Below are positions 508-61,974 of a DNA stretch of 64,000 nt, piece after piece; the first letter of the stretch is position 1, and every line of letters starts with the position of its first letter. The DNA is taken from the IMG/VR virus record IMGVR_UViG_3300028601_000019, positions 4,130 through 68,129 of that record. One strand, given 5' to 3'. The position numbers and the translations under genes are program-made. The stretch comes from a virus (Duplodnaviria > Heunggongvirae > Uroviricota > Caudoviricetes). The notes beneath the pieces are model-generated. The model ran no database searches and was not told where the DNA came from. It worked only from the letters and a program-made list of their open reading frames with translations.

Positions 508-939
508 TTAGATTTGAATAGCAATATTATCAATGTAGATTTTGTTTTCTGATTTCATTTGAATTGAAAACATTTGGAAACCTGATGGTGCTTCAATTTC
601 TTCAATCTGTTTAATTTTCTTTCTTTGAAAAAGAACATGACTTAGATTTAGACTTTTAGCTTTTACCAATGATTTATCAATAAGCATAAATTTTACATTA
701 TGGGAAACCTGAATATAATTTCCATCTTCAAGGGTTACTTTGATTAGAGATTTTTGATTGGCCTCTTCGATTAAAATGACTGGAGAAAAACCATTTACTG
801 TTAAAATTTCAAGAAATCTTTTGTTGATTTTTTTGTTGTCAAGTGCGCTTTTTAAAACATCAACCCTAATTGTGCTTAGTTTGTTTTTTCCCGTCTTAAC
901 AGTTACACTTGAACCTCTGTGAACATAACAATTTTCCAT
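508..939 (-). CDS. Hypothetical protein, 143 aa.
   Basis: ORF with an AAGGA ribosome-binding site 8 nt upstream of the ATG. A TAA lies in frame upstream. No in-frame TGA. Confidence 0.55.
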   Translation of the reverse strand: MENCYVHRGSSVTVKTGKNKLSTIRVDVLKSALDNKKINKRFLEILTVNGFSPVILIEEANQKSLIKVTLEDGNYIQVSHNVKFMLIDKSLVKAKSLNLSHVLFQRKKIKQIEEIEAPSGFQMFSIQMKSENKIYIDNIAIQI

Positions 940-1058
940 GATTATAATTCCTTTTCGTTTTGAATTATAATTATTTATTTAGATTCATTTTCTAATGAAG
1001 AACATTGATGTTTTAATGAATTTTTCATTGATTTCCTCTCAATTATAAATTTGTTTTC

Positions 1059-1066
1059 TATAAATA
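1059..1066 (+). promoter_or_regulatory. T4-type late promoter motif TATAAATA. It sits in an 8-nt insertion that is present in IS copy 1 and absent from copy 2, upstream of tnpB.
   Basis: Exact TATAAATA. Copy 2 reads TTCTATATATAATATT at the same place. Confidence 0.4.
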
Positions 1067-1098
1067 GATATATAATATTAAAACTAGGTTGTAAACAA

Positions 1099-2280
1099 AT
1101 GATTAGATCATCCAAACATATTTTGAAGTATCAGACTGGTTCCAAGACGAAAGTCTTGAACCAGCTTTTTGACGACTTCAGAACTGACTTGTCTTGGTAT
1201 ATAGATCTGATCATTGCTGGGCAATTGCCTCTAACCAAGTTCATGTCATCCAAGGACTTGCCTTCGGGGATCATTACTCATTCTGCTTGGAAACAAATTC
1301 TGTATAAAACAGCATCTGAAATTGTTCGTTCTCAATACAAACAAGCCTCTAATCAAAGATTCAAGCATTACAAGAAATTGTTCCACAAGTGCAGTAGTGC
1401 AAACAAACATTGTTTTTTTACTGACAAACGATTTAGTGAACTGAATCTCAAGCCAATTCATCAATCTAGGTTCTTTAGTAAGCCAGACTTAAAGAACTTT
1501 TCAATCACACTAGATTCTAGATTGATTGACTTTCAATATGGCTTGCATTTCGATGAATTTGTAAGAATTAAAACCCCATTGTTCCATGAGCACAAGAAAC
1601 GTGCCATTACAATCAATATTCCAATCAAACATCACAAACATAGTCGTAAATTCGAGTCATGGGAACGAAAGAACTCAGTTCGATTGACATTAAAGAACGG
1701 AGTCATGAATCTTGAATTGATCTATGAGAAAGATGCACCTAAACTAAAGACAGATGGTTCTGTTCTTGGAATCGATCAGGGCTACAAGAAACTAATGTCA
1801 TGCTCCGATGGAACATTTCTTGGTTCTGAGATGGAATCAATCTACAAGTTCATTTCCAACAAAAAACAAGGCTCTAAGGCTTTCAAGAGAGCATTGATTC
1901 ATAGGACCAATGAAACGAACAGAATTTGTAATTCTCTAGATCTTTCTGATGTCAAAGAACTTGTTGTCGAGGACCTCAAGAACTTGAAACATAAATCAAA
2001 ACTGTCAACAAATTTTATGAACAAGATGCAACGCTGGGTTTATCCAGCAGTACTGGGCAAATTGGAATCCTTGGCTGAAATGAACGGTGTTCATTTCACG
2101 AAGGTGAATCCTGCTTATACTTCGCAGACATGTTCTAATTGCGGATGTGTAGATCCTGAGTCTCGCCAAGGCGAAGACTTCATGTGTCTGCATTGTGGCT
2201 ATGAGATTGATGCAGACTGAAATGCATCAATCAACATTGCCCGTTTGGGAATTTATAGTTCCCAAAGTCCAAAAAGCTAA
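1099..2280 (+). CDS. tnpB: TnpB (IS605 OrfB family RuvC-like RNA-guided nuclease), about 393 aa.
   Basis: RuvC-I motif GIDQG; RuvC-II motif VVEDLKNL; zinc finger CSNCGC...CLHCG; RuvC-III motif DAD-TGA-NASINI. The ORF continues 20 codons past the TGA to a TAA. Confidence 0.85.
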
Positions 2281-2318
2281 TTTCATTGTTTTTCATTGAA
2301 ATTGGCAACTATGATCTC

Positions 2319-4310
2319 TTATCAAGTAGATTCTTCAAGATAGTGATCATCATTAATATCTGAAAGAATACCTCATACATCCTCTTCTTCTTTGTTTTTA
2401 AAAAGGTCAACCTCATCCTTAAAAAGTTCTGTATCAATAAGATAGCACATCCAATATAGACCTGAAACAAGGTCATCTCCACCATCTGTACTTGAAGTAA
2501 ACTTTCCATTCTTTTCAATAAAAGTAGAAATTTGTTTTGCTGTTTCCCTATCTTTAATTATTAGAGAACCGTCTTCAATAAGTTTTTTCATTGTGATAAC
2601 AGCTTTGGTTTTAGATGCTGATGTGGCTCTAATTCCGATTTCATTCTCTTTATTTCCAGAATTGTAAAGATTTGGATTTTCAAAAATTCACCAAAGATTT
2701 TGAGTAACAGTAGATCCCTCAGCATTGTTCTCTGCTCCAATAATAGCATCATTATAATAAATTGAAAGCCTGTTAATGATGGAAGAAAGTTCATAGGTAT
2801 CTGTGACATTGGATTGGAAAGTTGCAGCATTAACTAACTTAACTGGTTTGAATGAGTCTATTCTATAGATTTGAATAGTAGCATCATGAGCACCTGATCC
2901 TTTTGATGGATCAACACCAATAAGAAACTTTTCTCCTTGCTTTGGTTTATGATACACTCGTAATCTATCATTTAGATCTGTTTCTTGAGGATCTTCAATT
3001 GTTGTGTTAATAAATTCAATCCCAGCAGTTGAAACTAGAGTATTAGATGACCCGAGGAACTCAACTTCAAATTCCTGTTTGAATTTTGCAAGGTTGCCCA
3101 TATTCTTAATCTGTTTATCTCTTCAGGTCTTTGTTCTTCCAGGAATCATATCCCAAGTAACTTTCATATGTTTGTATTCATTTCTTTTTGCTTCAGCACC
3201 GGAATATATTTCATGAAATAGATTAAACACACCATTTGGGGTTGAAATGATAATAATTTTAGCCTCATCAGAAGATGAAATTGCTGGATATACTGAAGTA
3301 TAAAATTCTCTTGCTATACCGTCGGAGACGAATCCAAGTTCGTCGAGTAGAAGAAGTGCTACTGAACGCCCCCGAAAGGTATCTTCAGTTGTGCCGGCAG
3401 TTTCAATTTTTGACCCATTTTCAAATTCTATTGATTGTTTATTATATTCAACAACACCCGGTTTAAGATAGAAAGGAAGCTCTTCATACATAATTTTAAT
3501 ACGTCTAAGAAGGTCTTTTGCAGAACTTGCCTTATTAGATGCTATTCCAATAAATTTATCAGAGTGAAATATAGCATATCATAAAGCAAAAGCCCCTACT
3601 GTTGTTGAGTTATGACTCTTTACACCATTTGTATAATAACATTCTCCATCAACATCTAAACAATCATACATATTAGATGATGTATCTAATTTTTCAACAT
3701 TAGAAATTTCTATATCACCATTTTCGGTTTCTATAAAATCCCCAATAGTTAGATCCTTAGCATAAATTTCCTTGTCATCAGAAAATAGTATATGATTATC
3801 AGCACACACAAATTCAATGCCATTATTCAATGATACTTTATATTCATTATATTCAACAGTTTTACCAACACCAGAAAAATCTTTTCATCCATCTGGAGTT
3901 CAAATTTCATAATCTTCACAATTTCTTTTCTCTATAAATTTATCATTTATAACAAAAGAAGATGTTGTTAGTTTGTCAAAGAATTCCCCAATGGTTAATT
4001 CTTCTTCTATTCCTGTTTTCTTGTTTCTTATCTTTATTTTTGTATCCCAAGAAACGCACTTGCCCGATTGTCTACAGAATAAAAAAGTTAAGTATCTATG
4101 ATCTTTACACATTTTAATCATCTTTTTCTGGAAAGGATACAACAAATCTCCAAGCTTTTTTCTTCCACCATCAATTGTTACGATTGTAACAAAGTTTAAA
4201 AAATATAAAACATCTTCAGAACACTTTACAAGATCTGAAATCATTTCTGGTGTGTATTCATCTTCCATTCCTGGATTTTTTACAAATTTATCGTCATATC
4301 TAATTGACAT
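2319..4310 (-). CDS. gp17: Terminase large subunit (T4 gp17-like) containing a mini-intein. The precursor is about 663 aa and is read through 6 in-frame TGA codons.
   Basis: Five standard-code ORFs lie in one frame, separated only by TGA. T4 gp17 motifs are present: LFCRQSGK (Walker A), VEYNKQSIEFENGSKI and KIIIISTPNGVFNLFHEIY. The TGA aligns with an aromatic position in gp17. Confidence 0.85.
3609..4058 (-). other. Hint-domain mini-intein of 150 aa inserted in the terminase P-loop. It runs from Cys1 (CVSWDTKI...) to ...VKSHN and is followed by the +1 Ser of the extein (STTVGAFAL).
   Basis: The extein junctions QSGK|C and HN|STTV reconstitute QSGK-STTV, which matches T4 QLGKTTVV. Intein blocks A (CVSWDT), B (ADNH) and F/G (DCLDVDGECYYTNGVKSHN) are present. 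There is no endonuclease domain. Confidence 0.75.
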
Positions 4311-4356
4311 TTTCCTAACCTTATATATATTTTAATCTATTTATGATCAATAATCT

Positions 4357-4364
4357 TATAAATA
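4357..4364 (+). promoter_or_regulatory. T4-type late promoter TATAAATA upstream of the gp24-like gene. A divergent near-match, CATAAATA, lies on the minus strand at about 4333-4343 upstream of the terminase gene.
   Basis: Exact motif about 45 nt upstream of the ATG, followed by a GGAGGAATTTAAAC ribosome-binding site. Confidence 0.55.
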
Positions 4365-4409
4365 GTTTAAATTAGCACTGATATTCAATTCTTTTGGAGG
4401 AATTTAAAC

Positions 4410-5579
4410 ATGTCTGAATTTGATATTTTATTTACAGAACAGGAGAAGAAATCTAAGACTTTTTATCAAATTTCTACTCTATTGGAAAACACTTATAAGG
4501 TAATCAAGAATAACAACCCCAATTTTACTATTGAGGAAGCTGTTTCCTATGCTACAGGGAGTTTGGGGGATATTTCAGATTTCTCAACTAACGGAATTTA
4601 TCATAAAATTTCCATGGGGCTGTCAAAGAAAACTTGGGATAGACTTATTGCAAGAGAAATTGTTGGTGTTCAACCAATGAATGGTCCTGTTGGCTTATAT
4701 TATGCATTAAGATTTTATGCCAATTCTACTTATGGTGGACAAGCAAATCAAGAGCTTGGATTTAACAAGGTAGATACAACTTACACAGGATCATTAACAC
4801 CATCAGCAAGTGAAGCATTGGGATCAGGTATTTCTGGGTATCCCGGACTTGGAATTGGAACCGGGGAAAACATTAAAGAGATTAACATTAAACTTGAAAA
4901 GAAACAAGCTGAAGCACAAACAAGAAAACTAAATGCAAGATTTTCTGAAGAGCTTTTTCAAGATGTTTTCACAATGCACGATGTTAATCTAAGAGATCAG
5001 GTTTATACTGGAATTGCTCGTGAAGTCCAAACAGAAATTGACCTTGAAGTCATTGAAAAGATTAATAGTGTAGCAACAGCAAAAACATTAAATTTTGCTA
5101 CTGTTGCTGGTGATAACAAATCTGATAAGTATAATTCATTTGTTGCATATGTATTAAATCTTGCTAATGTAATTGGTAAGACTTCTAATCATGGTAATGG
5201 TAATTTTGTAATTGCAAGTTCAAATATTTCCGGTGTAATTGAATCTACTCCTCAATTTTCTGTATCAATGATTACAGACAAACAATATGAATGGGATGAT
5301 AGAGTTTGTTTCGCCGGAACAATTAATGGAATGAAGCTTTTTAGAAATATTTTTTGGGATACTGATAAGTACATTGTAGGATATAAGGGTGAAACAGAAC
5401 TTGATGCTGGGATTTTTTATCTTCCATATATTTTTATGCATCTACAAGCCATTCAAGAAAATTCTTTCCAGAATTCTATTGGTGTAATGAGTAGATATGC
5501 AATTGGTGAAAATATTTTTGGTGCTGAGAAATATTATCAGAAAGTTGAAGTAAGCAATATGGATGTTTTATATTCATAG
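4410..5579 (+). CDS. gp24: Major capsid protein paralog (T4 gp24-like vertex protein or second MCP), 389 aa.
   Basis: Shares the T4 gp23/gp24 motifs VGVQPMNGPVG..ALRF and KKQAEAQTRKLNARFS..LFQD with the 11055 gene. No in-frame TGA. Confidence 0.7.
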   Translation: MSEFDILFTEQEKKSKTFYQISTLLENTYKVIKNNNPNFTIEEAVSYATGSLGDISDFSTNGIYHKISMGLSKKTWDRLIAREIVGVQPMNGPVGLYYALRFYANSTYGGQANQELGFNKVDTTYTGSLTPSASEALGSGISGYPGLGIGTGENIKEINIKLEKKQAEAQTRKLNARFSEELFQDVFTMHDVNLRDQVYTGIAREVQTEIDLEVIEKINSVATAKTLNFATVAGDNKSDKYNSFVAYVLNLANVIGKTSNHGNGNFVIASSNISGVIESTPQFSVSMITDKQYEWDDRVCFAGTINGMKLFRNIFWDTDKYIVGYKGETELDAGIFYLPYIFMHLQAIQENSFQNSIGVMSRYAIGENIFGAEKYYQKVEVSNMDVLYS

Positions 5580-5626
5580 TGAAATATTCAGAACGAGGAA
5601 AGATAAATCCCTTTGATGCTTATATG

Positions 5627-5806
5627 GCAGGGTGTTCTATTTGAATCACACCACAAGTAATTCTAATTTTAGAAAAACTATGTGAAAAATATAAAGATGA
5701 ATTAGAAGGAATTGATTTAGATGGGTTTCTTGACTTTAAAGATCAGATAGATCATGAAGCAGTTATAAAAAGAAAAAAGTATATGTAAATTAAAAAGGGA
5801 GCTATA
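5627..5806 (+). CDS. Small hypothetical protein, 59 aa, with one in-frame TGA.
   Basis: ORF read with TGA as Trp. Weak support. Confidence 0.25.
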
Positions 5807-5826
5807 ATAGCTCCCTTTTCTTATTC
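5793..5826. terminator. Bidirectional rho-independent terminator: GGGAGCTAT-aat-ATAGCTCCC, with an A-run on one side and a T-run on the other.
   Basis: Perfect 9-bp stem lying between convergent genes. Confidence 0.75.
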
Positions 5827-6102
5827 AAAAATCTTTGAAATTTTCCTTGGTTTAACTTGTGTCTCTGTTAGTTTTACTTCAATCTTTGGTTCTTTAGATT
5901 CTAAATCTGCATTTGATATTTCGCTATCTGTCAATAAAGACAAATGAGTATTCATGATTGATAATTGACCCACAATCTTTTTCAATAAAATTTCATTAGA
6001 AGTATCATAAACTTTTAATTCATCTTGTTCTACTCCTGTTACTTTTAAATGGGCAGATGCACCATCTGCATTTTTAATTGAATTTGATGAATATAGGATC
6101 AT
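5821..6102 (-). CDS. Hypothetical protein, 93 aa.
   Basis: ORF with an AAGGAAGACAT ribosome-binding site before the ATG. No TGA. Confidence 0.5.
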   Translation of the reverse strand: MILYSSNSIKNADGASAHLKVTGVEQDELKVYDTSNEILLKKIVGQLSIMNTHLSLLTDSEISNADLESKEPKIEVKLTETQVKPRKISKIFE

Positions 6103-11054: not shown

Positions 11055-12296
11055 ATGTCTAAAATTAATGTTAAACAGCTAGTGGAAAAATGGAATCCAC
11101 TTATCAATGAGGAAGCAGTAGTTTCCAAAATTGGCAAGATTAAAGATAATAAGATCGAAGCTATGACTGCTATTATGTTGGAAAATGAATTCAACTATCT
11201 AAAAGAGCAGAATATGATTAGTGAAGCATCTTATACAGATGGTTCTTTTGGTACCAACTATGCAACTTCTGGTGAATTCCATAAGATTGCTATTCCCATG
11301 GTTCGCAGAACTTTCCCTAACCTCATTGCTCATGAAACTGTTGGTGTACAGCCAATGACCACTCCTGTTGGTCTAGCTTTCGCCCTACGTTTCAAAGCTG
11401 GTCAAACTTATAATAGTGGTTCCAACACTGAGCTTGGTTATAACACAGTAGATAAAGCTTATACTGGATCTATGATTACTTCTGCTGGTGAAGCTCTAGG
11501 TTCAAGTGTATCTCCCCCAGTTGGTTTAGGTATTGGTTCTGGCGATCAGATCAAGGAAGTCAATTTAACAATTGAAAAATCCCAGATCGAAGCTAAGACC
11601 CGTAAGTTACGTAGCCGTTGGTCCCTAGAGGTTGCTCAGGATCTAAATGCTATGCATGGTCTTGACATTGAATCTGAAATGCTTGATATTCTTTCTTATG
11701 AAATTCAGGCTGAAATTGACCGAGAAATCGTAGATGCTGTTAAAGCTGCTGCTAATAACAACTCTTACTCTTACGTTGCTGGTAAACAAGGTACACTTTC
11801 TTGGGCTTCCAGTGCTAATTTTGATGGTCGTTGGGAACATGAAAAATATCGTAACCTTTATAACTACACAGTTCGTATGTCTAACCGTATTGCTATCACA
11901 ACTCGTAGAGGTGCTGGTAACTTTATCGTAGCTAATCCTACTGTATGTGCTGCTCTTGAAGGAACTTCTAGTTTTACTATCGCTCCTGTAAATGGTAATG
12001 TAAACACTGGTAACACCTCTGTAGAAATTATCGGTACACTTGACGGACGTATGAAAGTTATCCGTGATACCTTTGCTACTGTTGATGAACTCACAGTTGG
12101 GTATAAGGGTGCTTCTGCAACCGGTATGGATGCTGGTATTATCTATTGTCCTTATGTACAGCTAATGCTAAGTCGCGCTACATTCGAAAATAGCTTTAAC
12201 CCAAGTGTTGGTTTGTTAAGCAGGTATGGGCTTCATAGTAATATCTTTGGTAGCGAAAATTACTACATGCGTGCAGTTATTGAAAATATGCCTTAG
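11055..12296 (+). CDS. gp23: Major capsid protein (T4 gp23-like), 413 aa.
   Basis: PMVRRTFPNLIAHETVGVQPMTTPVGLAFALRF matches T4 gp23 MVRRAIPNLIAFDICGVQPMNSPTGQVFALR. IEKSQIEAKTRKLRSRWSLEVAQDL matches IDKQVIEAKSRQLKAAYSIELAQDL. No TGA. Confidence 0.9.
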   Translation: MSKINVKQLVEKWNPLINEEAVVSKIGKIKDNKIEAMTAIMLENEFNYLKEQNMISEASYTDGSFGTNYATSGEFHKIAIPMVRRTFPNLIAHETVGVQPMTTPVGLAFALRFKAGQTYNSGSNTELGYNTVDKAYTGSMITSAGEALGSSVSPPVGLGIGSGDQIKEVNLTIEKSQIEAKTRKLRSRWSLEVAQDLNAMHGLDIESEMLDILSYEIQAEIDREIVDAVKAAANNNSYSYVAGKQGTLSWASSANFDGRWEHEKYRNLYNYTVRMSNRIAITTRRGAGNFIVANPTVCAALEGTSSFTIAPVNGNVNTGNTSVEIIGTLDGRMKVIRDTFATVDELTVGYKGASATGMDAGIIYCPYVQLMLSRATFENSFNPSVGLLSRYGLHSNIFGSENYYMRAVIENMP

Positions 12297-13306: not shown

Positions 13307-14278
13307 CTATATTCATATTCATAGTTTATAATCAAAGCCTGCATTTTTAACACTTTGCTCTTTTAATAAGTTCTTTTGAAGTTCTTTATTATATGTAAAT
13401 GTTGATTTTACTTCAACAATAAGATTATCTTTAGGTATATAGAAATCTGGAAAATATCTATGTTTTTTCATATCAATGCCTATATATCAAAAAGGAGGAA
13501 TTTCTCTCTTTTTATAAACAATTTCATTTTCGTTATATATTTTTAAAAGTTCATCAAAAACTTCCGGTTCATATCCCTGAAGATTGATAATTTTACCAGA
13601 TGGTAGTACATATTCATGTCATGATTTTTTATAGCCGCCCTGTGTTCTTTCAAAAACAATAGAACTTTGTGATGGATGATCTACGCCATAATTATTTTGT
13701 CACGTTTCTTTACAAGCATTTTTATAAATATCTGTTTTTGAAAACCAATCTACACCATATTTCTCTAAACAGGTTTCTCTATTTTTATCAAATCGCTCTT
13801 TTCTTTCAATTGGGGTTTCATTTCTATATCTTTCTTTAATGCTTTCAATATGAGTCTCGGTTTGAGTATAGTGTGGTACACCATATTTCTCTAAACAGGT
13901 TTTTTCGCTTTTATCTAATAATTCTTTAGATTGCATAGATCAAGGAACCCCATATTTTTCAACCATTGAATTATTAAATTTTTTTATAACTTCAGGATTT
14001 TTCATAGAACATTTTTGCGAGCAATGTCTTTTATACCCTTCCCTAAGATTAACATATTTAACTTTTTTCTGGTTACATATACAGCACAACATAATGTCAA
14101 AATTATCATTGATAATATGTCAACATCTTTGTGATAATGATGCGGTTTCAGGAAGAAATGATGTGAGTTCAAAAATTTGTATTTTTCTGTCAGGAAATCT
14201 AAAAAGTTTTCTGGGACTTATTTTTCCTAGAGAATCTAGCAAATTCTCTTTAATTCATATTTTTAGTTGATCGTTCAT
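13307..14278 (-). CDS. Homing-endonuclease-like protein of 323 aa, with about 6 in-frame TGA. It has an N-terminal zinc ribbon (CCICN...HCSQKC), tandem KYGV-containing repeats and a C-terminal PD-(D/E)xK nuclease motif (YFPDFYIP...IVEVKS).
   Basis: Translated by hand through TGA. The frame length is divisible by 3. Repeats are VEKYGVPW, CLEKYGVPH, CLEKYGVDW and NNYGVDHPSQS. Confidence 0.5.
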
Positions 14279-27331: not shown

Positions 27332-27405
27332 GGCCCAGTAACTCAACTGGATAGAGTACGAACCTCCTAAGTTCGAAGTTGCAAGATCGTACCTTGCCGG
27401 GGTCA
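27332..27405 (+). tRNA. tRNA-Arg (anticodon CCU), 74 nt, with one A-G mismatch in the acceptor stem.
   Basis: Hand-folded cloverleaf: acceptor GGCCCAG, D-arm ACTC/GAGT, anticodon arm CGAAC-CTCCTAA-GTTCG, T-arm GCAAG-ATCGTAC-CTTGC. Confidence 0.6.
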
Positions 27406-27411
27406 CAAAAT

Positions 27412-27484
27412 GCTCCTGTAGTTCAATTAGCAGAATCCCCGGCTCATAACCGGACAGTTGTAGGTGCAAATCCTGCCGGGAGCA
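27412..27484 (+). tRNA. tRNA with a CAU anticodon (elongator Met, or Ile if modified to lysidine), 73 nt.
   Basis: Hand-folded cloverleaf: acceptor GCTCCTG/CGGGAGC, anticodon loop CTCATAA, T-arm GTAGG-TGCAAAT-CCTGC. The 1:72 pair is G-C, so it is not an initiator. Confidence 0.65.
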
Positions 27485-27508
27485 CAAACTTTTAAAAGGA
27501 GATTTGAA

Positions 27509-32522: not shown

Positions 32523-32591
32523 AATGGCAACAATTCACAATAATGGATGGGATTTTGTTAAAGAAGGAGAAACATACCAATATTATATTTA
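32523..32591 (+). CDS. Short ORF of 22 aa (MATIHNNGWDFVKEGETYQYYI) that ends at the IS left boundary. It may be the remnant of an interrupted gene.
   Basis: GGAG ribosome-binding site. The stop TAG is the first IS nucleotides. Confidence 0.25.
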
Positions 32592-33926
32592 GATTCATTT
32601 TCTAATGAAGAATATTGATGTTTTAATGAATTTTTCATTAATTTCCTCCTGAAATTATAAAATTAGTCAAAAACAAAATTTGTTTTCTATATATAATATT
32701 AAAATTAGGATTTCCAATGATTAGATCATCCAAGCACATTTTGAAGTATCAGACTGGTTCAAAGACGAGAGTCTTGAACCAGCTGTTTGACGACTTCAGA
32801 ACAGATTTGTCTTGGTACATAGATCTAATCATTTCGGGGCAATTGCCACTGACCAAGTTCATGTCATCCAAGGACTTGCCTTCAGGGATCATTACTCACT
32901 CCCAATGGAAACAAATTCTATACAAGACAGCATCTGAAATTGTTCGTTCTCAATACAAACAAGCCTCAAATCGACGATTCAAGCATTACAAGAAATTGTT
33001 CCATAGGTGCATTAGTGCAAATAAGCATTGTTCTTTCACTGATAAGAGATTTAGTGAACTGAACCTCAAACCAATTCATCAATCTAGGTTCTTTAGTAAA
33101 CCAGATCTAAAGAATTTCTCAATAACACTAGATTTAAGATTGATTGATTTTCAATATGGACTTCATTTCGATGAATTTGTTAGAATCAAGACTCCATTGT
33201 TTCATGAACACAAGAAACGAGCTATTACAATCAATGTCCCAATCAAGCATCACAAGCATAGTCGTAAGTTTGAGTCTTGGAAACGCAAGAACTCAGTTAG
33301 ATTGACACTAAAGAACAATGTCATGAATCTTGAATTGATCTATGAGAAAGAAGCTCCAAAACTAAAGACCAATGGTTCTGTTCTTGGAATTGATCAAGGC
33401 TATAAGAAATTATTGTCTTGTTCCGATGGAACATTTCTTGGTTCCGAAATGGAATCAATCTACAAATTCATTTCAAACAAAAAGCAAGGTTCCAAATCCT
33501 TCAAGAGAGCATTGATTCATAGGACCAATGAAACGAATCGAATTTGTAATTCTCTAAATCTTTCTAATGTCAAAGAGCTTGTTGTCGAGGACCTCAAGAA
33601 CCTAAAACATAAAACTAAACTAAGTACTAATTTTATGAACAAGATGCAACGCTGGGTTTACCCAGCAGTACTGGGCAAATTGGAATCCTTGGCTGAAATG
33701 AACGATGTTCATTTCACGAAGGTGAATCCTGCTTATACTTCGCAGACATGTTCACAATGCGGATGTGTAGATCCTGGGTCTCGCCAAGGCGAAGGCTTCA
33801 GGTGTTTGCACTGTGGACATGAGATTGATGCAGATTGAAATGCATCAATCAATATTGCCCGTTTGGGAATTTATAGTTCCCAAAGTCCAAAAAGCTAATT
33901 TCATTGTTCTTCATTGAAATTAGTAA
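32588..33926 (+). mobile_element. IS605/IS1341-family TnpB-only element, copy 2.
   Basis: More than 90% identical to 978..2312 across the left end, tnpB and the right end. Confidence 0.75.
32717..33898 (+). CDS. tnpB: TnpB, copy 2, about 393 aa. The terminal TGA is read as Trp.
   Basis: Same motifs as copy 1: CSQCGC...CLHCGHEIDAD-TGA-NASINIARLG. Confidence 0.85.
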
Positions 33927-34149
33927 CTATCTATAGTAACAAAAAAACGTAGTTGTGGGAAACCTTCATATGAATCAATGTGTTTTGCTCTACAAAACAT
34001 GGCCCAAGTTATGAAGGAAAACAACATTACAGAAGTTTTTATGCCTAGAATTGGTTGTGGTTTAGACCGACTATCTTGGCCAGCAGTAAGGGAACAACTC
34101 AAATATGTGTTTGGCGATAGTGAGGTAACTTTCAATGTCTACTATCTCT
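33927..34149 (+). pseudogene. Macro-domain C-terminal fragment. The N-terminal half is missing and the frame opens exactly at the IS right end.
   Basis: YESMCFALQNMAQVMKENNITEVFMPRIGCGLDRLSW...EVTFNVYY resembles the macro C-terminal strands (SIAFPAISTG type). There is no VNAAN/GGGV region upstream. Confidence 0.4.
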
Positions 34150-60414: not shown

Positions 60415-61974
60415 ATGGCTGAAAAAGATACTTTAAGAGATAATGTAAGGAAGGATGTTAAACAGACTACAACACTTCCTTTTAGTTTTAAAAATTTTGT
60501 TACTGGTATAGGGCTTGCTATTTCAAGATCTGGTGCACGGACATGAGATAAATTAGCTGATATGCCAGATGAAATAAAAAATGGATTTTCAAAAGTTTCT
60601 AGTACTATTCAATCTAGTACTACTGAAATTATGGGGTCCGCTTTAAATTCAATGATTGGAGATATTAAGTCTTTAGCATCGGGAATAAAAGATATTACTA
60701 CAGGAACTTTTAAAAAACTTTTTTCATTCTTTGGTGGTGATAATGAAGAGCTCAGTGAAGAAAAGAAACAAACAAAAACTCTTGGCAATATTTTTAAGAT
60801 TTTTAAGAAATGAAGCATTAGAGATATGTTTAAACCTAAAGAAAAGAATAAAGATGATGGAGGTTTTTTTGCCCCATTAGCTATTATAGGTCTTGCACTT
60901 GGAGCTATCACTGGTGGAATAGCTGCTGGTATTGGTGGTGTCATTGAATATTTTCTTATTCCTTTTAAAGTGGTTTTAAATAGTTTAAGAGGTGTTACTA
61001 CTCTTTTAAAGGAATCTTCAATTGGAAAACTTTTTATTGATTTTTTTGGAAAAGTAAGAGCATTTTTTAGTGGGTGAATTGATAACGCTTTAGTTTCTAT
61101 TAATAGTTTTTTTGGAAAGTTTAAAATTTTTGCTGGATTTTTTAAAGGGTTTAGTATTGGATTTATGAAACTATTTTCAAAAATTCCTGTTATCGGATGA
61201 TTTATTACTGGCGTAATGGCAATTATTGATTTTTTTACTGGGTTTTTCGGAACGGAAGGAAGCTTCTTTGAAAAAATAAAGGCCGGCTTAATAAACATGA
61301 CCACTGGATTTTTTTCCCCAATTTTTGAATTTATAGGATGAATTGGAGATTGAATTTTAAATCTATTTGGAATAAATTCTGATATAGGAACAACCTTAAA
61401 TACTTGATTTTCTAATCTTTTAAATTTCTTTTTTAATTTTCCTATAGTTGAAAAACTTAAGAATGCTTGAGAAGGAATACAAAATGCTGCAAATGCACTT
61501 GTTGAATCATTAAAAAATTGACTAATATCATTAATTCCCTCTTTCGATTCTATTAAAGAAATGCTTCCATCTTTTGACTCTATTAAAAAATCTATAATTG
61601 GGACAAGAGATACTATCAAAGATGAGGCTAAAAATGCTTGAAATTCGGCAGGCGAATATATTGGATCTTTTTTTGAAAAGGACAATTTATCACCAGCTCA
61701 GACTATTAGTGATCTTGATTCATCTACTAAAGCAAAAGAAGTATCCAATAATAAAGAAATGGCAAAAGCATTATATAAAATGACAGAACAACAAATTAAA
61801 GAATCTAAAAAACGTGATGAAGAAAAGAAAGAAACAGTTAATCAGCAAGTTAATGTTTCTTCAGTTCAAAATTCAAGAGGATCTTCCGGAGGCACATTTA
61901 TTGAGGCTCCGGATGAAATTGAAAACTTTGGAATTGTATTTATGAATAAAACAACACTAGGAGGAACGTTCTAA
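60415..61974 (+). CDS. gp29: Tail tape-measure-like protein of about 519 aa, Gly-rich with hydrophobic segments and about 9 in-frame TGA.
   Basis: ORFs 60562, 60826 and 61759 share a frame. Position after the tube gene and before a gp48-like gene, matching the T4 order 29-48. Confidence 0.55.

What the first reader, a model, noticed from the sequence alone, without database searches (positions are those of the whole stretch)
3609..4058. Mini-intein in the Walker A P-loop of the large terminase
QSGK|CVSWDT.....VKSHN|STTV. Removing 150 aa restores QSGK-STTVGAFAL, which matches T4 gp17 QLGKTTVVAIFL. Cys1, the TxxH-like block B, the terminal HN and a +1 Ser are all present. There is no homing-endonuclease domain. 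The terminase P-loop is a known intein insertion hotspot, but here it occurs in a code-4 T4-like phage.
Basis: partly seen in the sequence, partly recalled or inferred. Interest (0 to 1): 0.7.

Follow-up and report, generated by a model that had tools for sequence, protein, structure and literature searches.

The report
Mini-intein in phage terminase P-loop
The large terminase gene of this TGA-recoded T4-like phage carries a genuine 150-residue self-splicing mini-intein inside its ATP-binding loop. This is a well-known kind of element at a well-known hotspot, though sister phages show the same site empty or holding a split version of the same intein.

Summary
On the minus strand, 4058..3609 encodes 150 aa (Cys1…Ser-His-Asn, then +1 Ser) inside the Walker A motif (RQSGK|S) of a 663-aa T4-type TerL (4310..2319, TGA read as Trp).

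It is an intein:
- A 93-95% identical sister TerL (L010/P0023) lacks exactly these 150 aa and reads RQSGK-STTVGAFAL.
- The spliced sequence aligns without a gap across the junction to T4 gp17 (E=8e-57).
- The insert matches solved inteins (CatC 2e-11).
- Its AlphaFold model (pLDDT 95) matches only inteins (VidaL 2.5e-9).
- Cys1, block-B His, block-F Asp, terminal His-Asn and +1 Ser are conserved.
- dN/dS is 0.06, the same as the extein.
- There is no endonuclease domain.

It is not new in kind:
- Homologous inteins occupy the same site in 331 cultured-phage records (Ackermannviridae, Campylobacter phages).
- The Lys|Thr P-loop site is described as the "classic" intein site.
- An intein plus stop-codon recoding in one TerL gene has been reported in crAss-like phages.

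The added value is a natural allele series in this clade: empty, contiguous (here), and atypically split (30-aa IntN) around a 398-aa putative endonuclease gene.

This is a new member of a known kind, of modest interest.

The parts
2319..4310 (-). Large terminase (TerL, T4 gp17 type) precursor gene: 663 codons plus TAA, with seven in-frame TGA=Trp codons (aa 137, 142, 244, 396, 541, 646, 663)
   Evidence: Identical to the public protein P0141. With the insert removed: Pfam Terminase_6N 58.4 bits (cut-off 22) and T4 gp17 structures at E=8e-57.
4059..4310 (-). N-extein, aa 1-84, ending in Walker A ...C-R-Q-S-G-K (4076..4059)
   Evidence: The -1 residue is the invariant Walker A Lys.
3609..4058 (-). 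Class-1-type mini-intein, 150 aa (precursor aa 85-234), with no homing-endonuclease domain
   Evidence: Exactly absent from the sister allele L010/P0023 and from T4 gp17. PDB intein hits. AF2 pLDDT 95.1, pTM 0.87. Foldseek finds inteins only, VidaL E=2.5e-9. dN/dS 0.06.
3969..4058 (-). Intein residues 1-30 (block A, CVSWDT...). This part equals the 30-aa IntN of the split sister allele
   Evidence: 29/30 aa identical to the L004 IntN and 30/30 to L007, despite pS of about 0.6-0.7. L004 ends '...GEFFDKM*'.
3951..3971 (-). Linker loop (intein residues 30-36, LTTSSFV). In sister phage L004/L005 these 21 nt are replaced by a 1.26-kb insert carrying a 398-aa putative homing endonuclease, which splits the intein
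   Evidence: The blastn break falls at window 3972/3950. Junction DNA. It overlaps the only dip in model confidence, the residue 31-40 block at pLDDT 78.
3885..3902 (-). Two in-frame TGA codons inside the intein (residues 53 and 58; 3902..3900 and 3887..3885)
   Evidence: They align to Trp in the standard-code homologues Kuja (YEVWT) and Cba120 (SGWVP).
3783..3821 (-). Block B (GIEFVCADNHILF), with His89 and Ala86 in place of the canonical Thr
   Evidence: A86, D87 and H89 are invariant in 14 contiguous family members. The block aligns to the CSDNH of CatC.
3609..3674 (-). Blocks F and G (NMYDCLDVDGECYYTNGVKSHN): Asp132, His149, Asn150
   Evidence: M130, D132, T143, S148, H149 and N150 are invariant.
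2322..3608 (-). C-extein, aa 235-663. It starts with the +1 Ser (3608..3606), which is the Walker A Ser/Thr. There is no second intein at the RGRS|V site
   Evidence: The second hotspot is occupied in L007-9, P0030/31 and P0046 but not here.

Best explanation
A contiguous, cis-splicing, class-1-type mini-intein interrupts the Walker A P-loop of the phage's T4-type large terminase, between the invariant Lys and the Ser that coordinates Mg-ATP. The gene is translated as one 663-aa precursor, which requires TGA to be read as Trp, including twice inside the intein.

Inferred mechanism, from the established class 1 pathway:
1. Cys1 undergoes an N-S acyl shift.
2. The N-extein is transferred to the +1 Ser hydroxyl.
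3. Asn150, assisted by His149, cyclises and releases the intein.
4. An O-N shift restores the peptide bond, giving the 513-aa TerL with an intact RQSGKS P-loop.

Until splicing occurs the ATPase site cannot form. The intein has no endonuclease of its own. Its spread in this phage clade is best explained by recombination, helped by free-standing homing endonucleases such as the 398-aa ORF that splits the same intein in sister phages.

Shown here: boundaries, fold, homology, residue conservation, purifying selection and presence/absence polymorphism. Inferred: splicing chemistry and the mode of mobility.
For: Boundaries:
- Sister TerL L010/P0023 (93-95% aa identity) reads CRQSGK-STTVGAFALWYAIFHSDKF with the 150 aa missing.
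- T4 gp17 aligns without a gap across the junction.
- MAFFT with Kuja, Cba120 and CP21 shows the same site occupied, and a clean gap in T4.

Homology and fold:
- phmmer against PDB: CatC 2e-11, gp41-1 0.012, VidaL 0.013.
- Family profile: CatC 1e-10, gp41-1 5e-9, VidaL 4e-8, Npu DnaE 6e-5.
- AF2 of the window intein: pLDDT 95.1, pTM 0.87.
- Foldseek against PDB: the top 50 are all inteins or BIL domains; VidaL E=2.5e-9 with TM 0.78/0.81, RadA TM 0.84.

Catalytic residues invariant across 14 family members: C1, H89, D132, S148, H149, N150.

Selection:
- Window vs L004: intein omega 0.061, extein 0.073.
- Window vs L007: intein omega 0.093.

Mobility:
- Intein synonymous divergence is lower than the extein's (pS 0.395 vs 0.651; 0 of 2000 extein resamples are as low).
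- Empty (L018) and split+ORF (L004) alleles sit in exteins that are 95.7% nt identical, and the blastn alignment breaks within a few nt of the intein boundaries.
- Of the 120 best TerL homologues, at least 56 are empty, at least 22 contiguous and at least 15 are IntC-start pieces.

TGA=Trp. Public code-4 call of the same protein.
Against: - Pfam Intein_splicing scores only 18.4 bits, below the 35.8-bit gathering cut-off, and PHROGs has no match.
- The block-B Thr is Ala. This is family-wide and is also seen in the VidaL intein.
- No splicing assay or proteomic junction peptide exists, so activity is inferred.
- The lower synonymous divergence of the intein could partly reflect codon or composition constraints (intein GC3 14% vs extein 20%) rather than recent transfer.
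- Only 64 kb of a genome of at least 165 kb was seen, so a second, uninterrupted TerL elsewhere cannot be formally excluded.
Confidence: 0.93

Rival explanations
1. The 150 aa are an ordinary, non-splicing, lineage-specific insertion domain of the terminase ATPase that stays in the mature protein.
For: Pfam's intein model is below threshold. Phage ATPases do tolerate insertions.
Against: The insert splits the Walker A GK|S motif itself. It has an intein fold and significant intein homology. It carries all splice-junction residues. It is precisely absent from near-identical orthologues.
Confidence: 0.01
2. It is a decaying, splicing-dead intein in a TerL pseudogene, with packaging done by another terminase copy elsewhere in the genome.
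For: Only part of the genome was examined. There is no HE domain, which fits a late stage of the intein life cycle. A degenerate stand-alone HINT-like ORF lies nearby (508..939).
Against: dN/dS is 0.06-0.09 in the intein and 0.03-0.07 in the extein. All catalytic residues are intact. The ORF is intact over 663 codons. No second Terminase_6-like ORF was noticed in the window, though no dedicated terminase scan was run (only the ORF list and the HINT-profile scan).
Confidence: 0.04
3. The gene works as a split (trans-splicing) system here too: translation stops at the TGA codons inside the intein (residues 53 and 58) and a downstream piece is made separately.
For: Sister phages do have a split version. 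Under table 11 the first ORF ends at intein residue 52.
Against: No start codon or ribosome-binding context gives a complete IntC after the TGA codons. Five more TGA codons interrupt the C-extein, so stop-reading would destroy TerL anyway. The TGA positions align to Trp in standard-code homologues. The natural split point in relatives is residue 30, not 52.
Confidence: 0.02

Closest known systems
TerL P-loop mini-inteins of cultured Ackermannviridae (CBA120, PhaxI, Kuja, Magnus and others) and Campylobacter Firehammervirus phages (CP21)
   Same: Same host protein family (T4-type TerL). Same insertion point, RQSGK|C...SHN|S/T. Same size class (145-173 aa), with no HE domain. They are 32-34% identical over the full length. 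An intein in the Magnus large terminase gene is noted in print (PMC6763660).
   Different: Only about 33% identical. Those phages use the standard code. Their linker after residue 30 is longer. In the three GenBank records inspected (Kuja, Cba120, CP21) the gene is annotated simply as a terminase / terminase large subunit, with no intein feature.
Atypical naturally split TerL inteins (the Lake Gatun terminase locus of Dassa et al. 2009; AceL-TerL, GOS-TerL; the engineered consensus Cat, PDB 6DSL)
   Same: CatC is the best solved-structure sequence match (E=2e-11, 31-34% identity). Sister phage L004/L005 carries this very intein split at residue 30 (30-aa IntN, 113-aa IntC) around a free-standing ORF. 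That is the 'fractured gene' layout (PMC2677866; PMC11766414).
   Different: In the window the intein is contiguous and must splice in cis. From memory, not verified here, AceL-TerL and Cat have a +1 Cys. That would place them at the second TerL hotspot (RGxS|C...HN|C) rather than at the P-loop.
'Classic' P-loop inteins (Lys|Thr of Walker A), e.g. mycobacteriophage TerL1-a (Kelley et al. 2016)
   Same: The insertion lies between the invariant Walker A Lys and the nucleophilic Ser/Thr, which also serves as the +1 splice nucleophile. Five representative TerL inteins at other sites (b, c, e, f, g) spliced experimentally in that study (PMC5050341).
   Different: The host there is a Terminase_1 family protein. 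In that study the Terminase_6 proteins carried inteins only at the C-motif. The tested b- and c-site inteins have HE domains.
Inteins in stop-codon-recoded crAss-like phage TerL (Yutin et al. 2021)
   Same: An intein and reassigned stop codons occur in the same TerL ORF, with recoded codons inside the intein as well (PMC7886860).
   Different: That case is TAG recoding, with Hint-Hop-type inteins, in Crassvirales. Here it is TGA=Trp, a mini-intein, in a T4-like myovirus-type genome.

Membership tests
Intein (HINT splicing domain, class 1) | In-frame insertion that is precisely absent from orthologues, leaving a continuous conserved host motif | tested here: met
   L010/P0023 and other clade members read RQSGK-STTVGAFAL. 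T4 gp17 aligns without a gap across the junction.
Intein (HINT splicing domain, class 1) | HINT fold | tested here: met
   AF2 pLDDT 95.1, pTM 0.87. The Foldseek top 50 are all inteins or BIL domains; VidaL 2.5e-9, RadA TM 0.84.
Intein (HINT splicing domain, class 1) | Block A nucleophile (Cys/Ser/Thr at position 1) | tested here: met
   Cys1 at 4058..4056, invariant in the family.
Intein (HINT splicing domain, class 1) | Block B TxxH motif | tested here: inconclusive
   His89 is present and invariant. The Thr position is Ala86, which is invariant in this family and also Ala in the solved VidaL intein. Established knowledge is that the His is the critical residue, but the canonical motif is only half met.
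Intein (HINT splicing domain, class 1) | Block F Asp, block G penultimate His, terminal Asn, and a +1 Cys/Ser/Thr | tested here: met
   D132, H149, N150 and +1 Ser. All are invariant, or S/T at +1.
Intein (HINT splicing domain, class 1) | Score above Pfam PF14890 (Intein_splicing) gathering threshold | tested here: not met
   18.4 bits against a 35.8-bit cut-off. Direct and profile searches against solved inteins are significant, so this reflects divergence from the Pfam seed and is not evidence against membership.
Intein (HINT splicing domain, class 1) | Autocatalytic protein splicing | not testable with these tools
   Inferred from intact residues and dN/dS of 0.06 in an essential gene.
Mini-intein (no homing endonuclease) | Only the splicing domain is present, with no LAGLIDADG/HNH/other nuclease insert | tested here: met
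   150 aa. Intein_splicing is the only Pfam hit. The model is a single compact HINT domain.
Atypical split intein (AceL-TerL/GOS-TerL/Cat type) | Intein encoded as two separate ORFs, with a short (25-37 aa) IntN | tested here: not met
   In the window the ORF is continuous through residues 30-40. The split form exists in sister phages L004/L005, P0024 and P0027.
T4-type large terminase (Terminase_6) | Terminase_6N ATPase with Walker A/B, plus an RNaseH-like nuclease domain | tested here: met
   Terminase_6N 58.4 bits (cut-off 22). Terminase_6C 20.4 bits (just under the 22.6 cut-off). T4 gp17 full-length E=8e-57 and RB49 nuclease domain E=3.6e-15.
TGA=Trp recoding (translation table 4) | In-frame TGA at positions that are Trp in standard-code homologues; a decoding tRNA | tested here: inconclusive
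   Five of the seven TGA codons align to Trp in at least one standard-code homologue, the other two align mainly to aromatic or other hydrophobic residues, and none aligns to Gly. No tRNA-Trp(UCA) lies in the 64-kb window, so host code 4 versus phage-encoded suppression is unresolved.

The most novel reading that the evidence does not exclude
The window allele is the cis-splicing ancestral state of a naturally, atypically split TerL intein. Within one TGA-recoded T4-like clade the same P-loop intein exists in three states:
- absent (L010, L018);
- contiguous (window, L007-9);
- split at residue 30 by insertion of a 398-aa zinc-finger / PD-(D/E)xK-like endonuclease gene into a 21-nt loop (L004/5).

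The split and empty alleles sit in exteins that are 95.7% nt identical. The split IntC start codon was created by a 1-nt change in the retained linker sequence (ATAAATGA-TAAATTT to ATAAATGAGTAAATTT). If so, this clade is a ready-made natural experiment on how atypical split inteins are born, and it supplies a matched cis/trans pair (94% identical) for protein engineering.
Probability: 0.55. Interest if true: 0.5.

Novelty: new member of a known kind. Interest (0 to 1): 0.33.

Why it matters
For annotation, the gene is shredded by standard-code gene callers (the JGI contig lists it as 136-, 83-, 122-, 137- and 72-aa fragments). Recognising both TGA=Trp and the intein is needed to recover the phage's terminase, which is the usual phylogenetic marker.

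For biology, it adds a recoded T4-like lineage to the hosts of the classic Lys|Ser/Thr P-loop intein. The intein has lived in a recoded genome long enough to carry two TGA-Trp codons itself.

The clade-level series (empty, contiguous, split with an endonuclease gene) illustrates the 'fractured gene' model of split-intein origin proposed in 2009. It could also give protein engineers a natural cis counterpart of a 30-aa-IntN split intein. None of this changes current understanding of inteins.

Tried and rejected
I first modelled a 55%-identical sister allele as a proxy. The window's own intein was accepted once the identical public protein P0141 was on record.
- The Pfam and PHROGs scans of the insert were weak or empty. 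The solved-structure and family-profile searches were what resolved it.
- My first dN/dS runs used boundaries 4 codons off (80/230 instead of 84/234). I redid them and the conclusions did not change.
- The 398-aa ORF of the sister allele has no convincing solved-structure match. It has only a zinc-finger Pfam hit plus a sub-threshold PvuRts1I-like nuclease hit, so 'homing endonuclease' is inferred from position and motif. It is absent from the window (tblastn).
- I looked for a co-conversion signal in the flanking exteins and found none at synonymous sites: the first 100 C-extein codons have pS 0.66.
- TGA=Gly (code 25) was considered and rejected.
- A crAss-like identity was considered and rejected, because the T4 core genes Gp23, Portal_T4, T4_CASP, Peptidase_S77 and gp13 are present.
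- PMC4661395 (the GOS-TerL paper) is not held in the library.

Full report
**1. Observation**

The gene lies on the minus strand. Translating 4310..2319 with TGA=Trp gives one 663-aa ORF.
- The N-extein is aa 1-84 and ends ...FCRQSGK.
- The insert is aa 85-234 (window 4058..3609): 150 aa, starting with Cys and ending Ser-His-Asn.
- The next residue is Ser (3608..3606), followed by TTVGAFAL.

Under table 11 the gene falls apart at seven in-frame TGA codons, two of them inside the insert. Public pipelines independently called the identical 663-aa protein on a 164,754-bp contig (P0141).

**2. What the host gene is**

With the 150 aa removed:
- The protein scores 58.4 bits on Pfam Terminase_6N (cut-off 22).
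- It aligns over its full length to T4 gp17 structures (E=8e-57), with no gap at the junction: rqsgkSttvgaf against rqlgkTtvvaif.
- The nearest cultured-phage TerLs are only 34-37% identical.

The same contig carries two Gp23-family genes, Portal_T4, T4_CASP and Peptidase_S77, so 'T4-like' is justified.

TGA=Trp is supported. Five of the seven TGA codons align to Trp in at least one standard-code homologue. That includes both TGA codons inside the insert, which align to Trp in Kuja and in Cba120. The other two align mainly to aromatic or other hydrophobic residues (mostly Tyr or Phe), and none aligns to Gly.

Whether the host uses code 4 or the phage recodes is open. No tRNA-Trp(UCA) lies in the window, and TGA usage is very uneven between genes.

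**3. The insert is an intein**

(a) Exact absence. A sister TerL (L010 = P0023, 93-95% aa identical) reads CRQSGK-STTVGAFALWYAIFHSDKF, which is the predicted spliced product. Several other clade members are also empty.

(b) Homology.
- phmmer against PDB: the engineered consensus atypical intein CatC E=2e-11, gp41-1 0.012, VidaL 0.013.
- A five-member family profile improves these to 1e-10, 5e-9 and 4e-8, and adds Npu DnaE.

(c) Fold.
- AlphaFold2 of the window's own intein gives pLDDT 95.1 and pTM 0.87.
- Foldseek against PDB returns only inteins and BIL domains in the top 50: VidaL E=2.5e-9 with TM 0.78/0.81, and RadA TM 0.84.
- A 55%-identical sister allele gave the same picture.

(d) Residues. 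C1, H89 (block B, C-A-D-N-H), D132 (block F), S148-H149-N150 (block G) and a +1 Ser/Thr are invariant across 14 contiguous family members. The canonical block-B Thr is Ala throughout this family.

(e) Selection (Nei-Gojobori, code 4).
- Against the split sister allele L004: intein omega 0.061 (141 codons), extein omega 0.073.
- Against the contiguous allele L007: intein omega 0.093.

(f) No nuclease domain. The insert is 150 aa, a single HINT domain, with no other Pfam hit.

The one negative result is that Pfam Intein_splicing is below its cut-off (18.4 vs 35.8 bits).

**4. How it most likely works**

By analogy with class 1 inteins (established mechanism, inferred here):
1. Cys1 forms a thioester with Lys84.
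2. The N-extein is transferred to the hydroxyl of the +1 Ser.
3. Asn150 cyclises with help from His149.
4. An O-N shift yields the mature 513-aa TerL.

The insertion separates the Walker A Lys from the Ser/Thr, so the ATPase site exists only after splicing. Kelley et al. call this Lys|Thr position the 'classic' P-loop intein site. They showed that five representative TerL inteins (at other insertion sites) splice, and argued from structural mapping that an unspliced intein is unlikely to allow pentamer assembly (PMC5050341).

**5. Relatives and mobility**

The same site holds a homologous mini-intein (32-34% identity, full length) in 331 cultured-phage records. These are Ackermannviridae such as CBA120, PhaxI and Kuja, and Campylobacter phage CP21. 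One genome announcement notes an intein in an Ackermannviridae terminase gene (PMC6763660).

Among the 120 best metagenomic TerL homologues, the P-loop site is empty in at least 56, carries a contiguous intein in at least 22, and at least 15 proteins begin with an IntC.

Within the window's own clade all three states occur.
- Empty: L010 and L018.
- Contiguous: the window; L007-9 (85% aa identity in the intein); and a second 152-aa allele, 55% identical, in P0018-22.
- Split: L004/L005, P0024 and P0027.

In L004:
- The N-terminal ORF ends '...GEFFDKM*' after a 30-aa IntN.
- A 398-aa ORF follows.
- A 542-aa ORF then restarts 'MSKFIEKRNCEDYEIW...'.

The 1.26-kb insert replaces just 21 nt of the window (3971..3951, intein residues 30-36). 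This overlaps the only low-confidence stretch of the model. The IntC start codon arose within retained linker sequence through a 1-nt change, which suggests the contiguous form is ancestral.

The 398-aa ORF has an N-terminal ROS/MucR-type zinc finger (2.5e-7) and a sub-threshold PvuRts1I-like nuclease match (3e-4). It has no solved-structure match and is absent from the window.

The split allele L004 and the empty allele L018 have exteins that are 95.7% nt identical, and the alignment breaks within a few nt of the intein boundaries.

Between the window and L004, the intein is less diverged at synonymous sites than the extein (pS 0.395 vs 0.651; 0 of 2000 resamples as low). This fits horizontal exchange of the intein, although composition differences (GC3 14% vs 20%) could contribute.

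A second hotspot (RGRS|C, just before Walker B) carries contiguous or split inteins in relatives but is empty here.

**6. Comparison with the literature**
- Fractured genes with split inteins and free-standing GIY-YIG or Vsr-like endonucleases were described in 2009. They include a Myoviridae gp17-like terminase split 'at an unusual point' with a 122-residue C-part (PMC2677866).
- AceL-TerL, GOS-TerL and the consensus Cat are the characterised atypical split TerL inteins (PMC11766414).
- An intein plus stop-codon reassignment in a single TerL ORF was shown for a crAss-like phage with TAG recoding (PMC7886860).

The element is therefore a new member of a known kind.

**7. Verdict**

Confidence that this is a functional cis-splicing mini-intein is about 0.93. 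Novelty is low to moderate.

What is worth keeping is the matched allele series in a TGA-recoded T4-like clade, and the practical point that the gene is invisible to standard-code annotation.

Noticed in passing
window 508..939 (-): A free-standing 143-aa ORF (MENCYVHRGSSVTV...IYIDNIAIQI*, no TGA) that is HINT-like. The TerL-intein family profile hits it at E=7.9e-5 (search space 352 ORFs), CatC at E=0.025 and Pfam Intein_splicing at E=0.027. It has no exteins and no terminal His-Asn, and the block-B His is not at the aligned position. It looks like a degenerate or stand-alone HINT domain of unknown role.
   Followed up: partly
window 972..2312 (+) and 32581..33930 (+): Two copies of a TnpB/Cas12f-like (IS605-type) element, 393-aa ORFs at 1099..2280 and 32717..33898. 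They are 88.7% nt and 94% aa identical. Copy 1 abuts the 3' end of TerL. Both use a TGA=Trp codon in the RuvC-III 'DADWNASINI' motif.
   Followed up: partly
whole window, e.g. 4410..5579 and 11055..12296 versus 60415..61974 and 13307..14278: TGA=Trp use is very uneven. Both Gp23-family genes and several other long ORFs have zero TGA but 3-10 TGG. Others have 8-10 TGA and 0-1 TGG. Only tRNA-Arg(CCT) and tRNA-Met are found in the window (27332..27485), with no tRNA-Trp(UCA). This may indicate block-wise or expression-linked recoding rather than a uniform host code 4.
   Followed up: no
window 4410..5579 (+) and 11055..12296 (+): Two separate Gp23-family (major capsid / vertex-type) genes, one directly upstream of and divergent from TerL (Pfam marks on the same contig, L006).
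   Followed up: no
L007-L009 (about 4000..6100) and P0046; P0030/P0031; P0036/37/41: A second TerL intein hotspot after 'FRGRS(IN)', just before Walker B. It holds a contiguous mini-intein with +1 Cys in P0030/31. In L007-9 and P0046 an IntN runs in frame into a long GIY-YIG-like ORF, with separate IntC pieces (P0036/37/41). The window is empty at this site.
   Followed up: partly
L001 (Kuja), L002 (Cba120), L003 (CP21): In these three cultured-phage GenBank records the TerL CDS (748 and 736 aa in Kuja and Cba120) contains the homologous P-loop mini-intein without any intein feature annotated. CP21's terminase is additionally broken at the second site, and its downstream CDS is labelled hypothetical.
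   Followed up: partly
L018 3244..3249 versus L004 / window / L010 junction codons: The empty allele L018 uses AGT-GGA for the Walker A Ser-Gly just upstream of the insertion point. The intein-bearing alleles and the empty L010 use TCG-GGC. These synonymous differences at a possible endonuclease target site were not analysed further.
   Followed up: no
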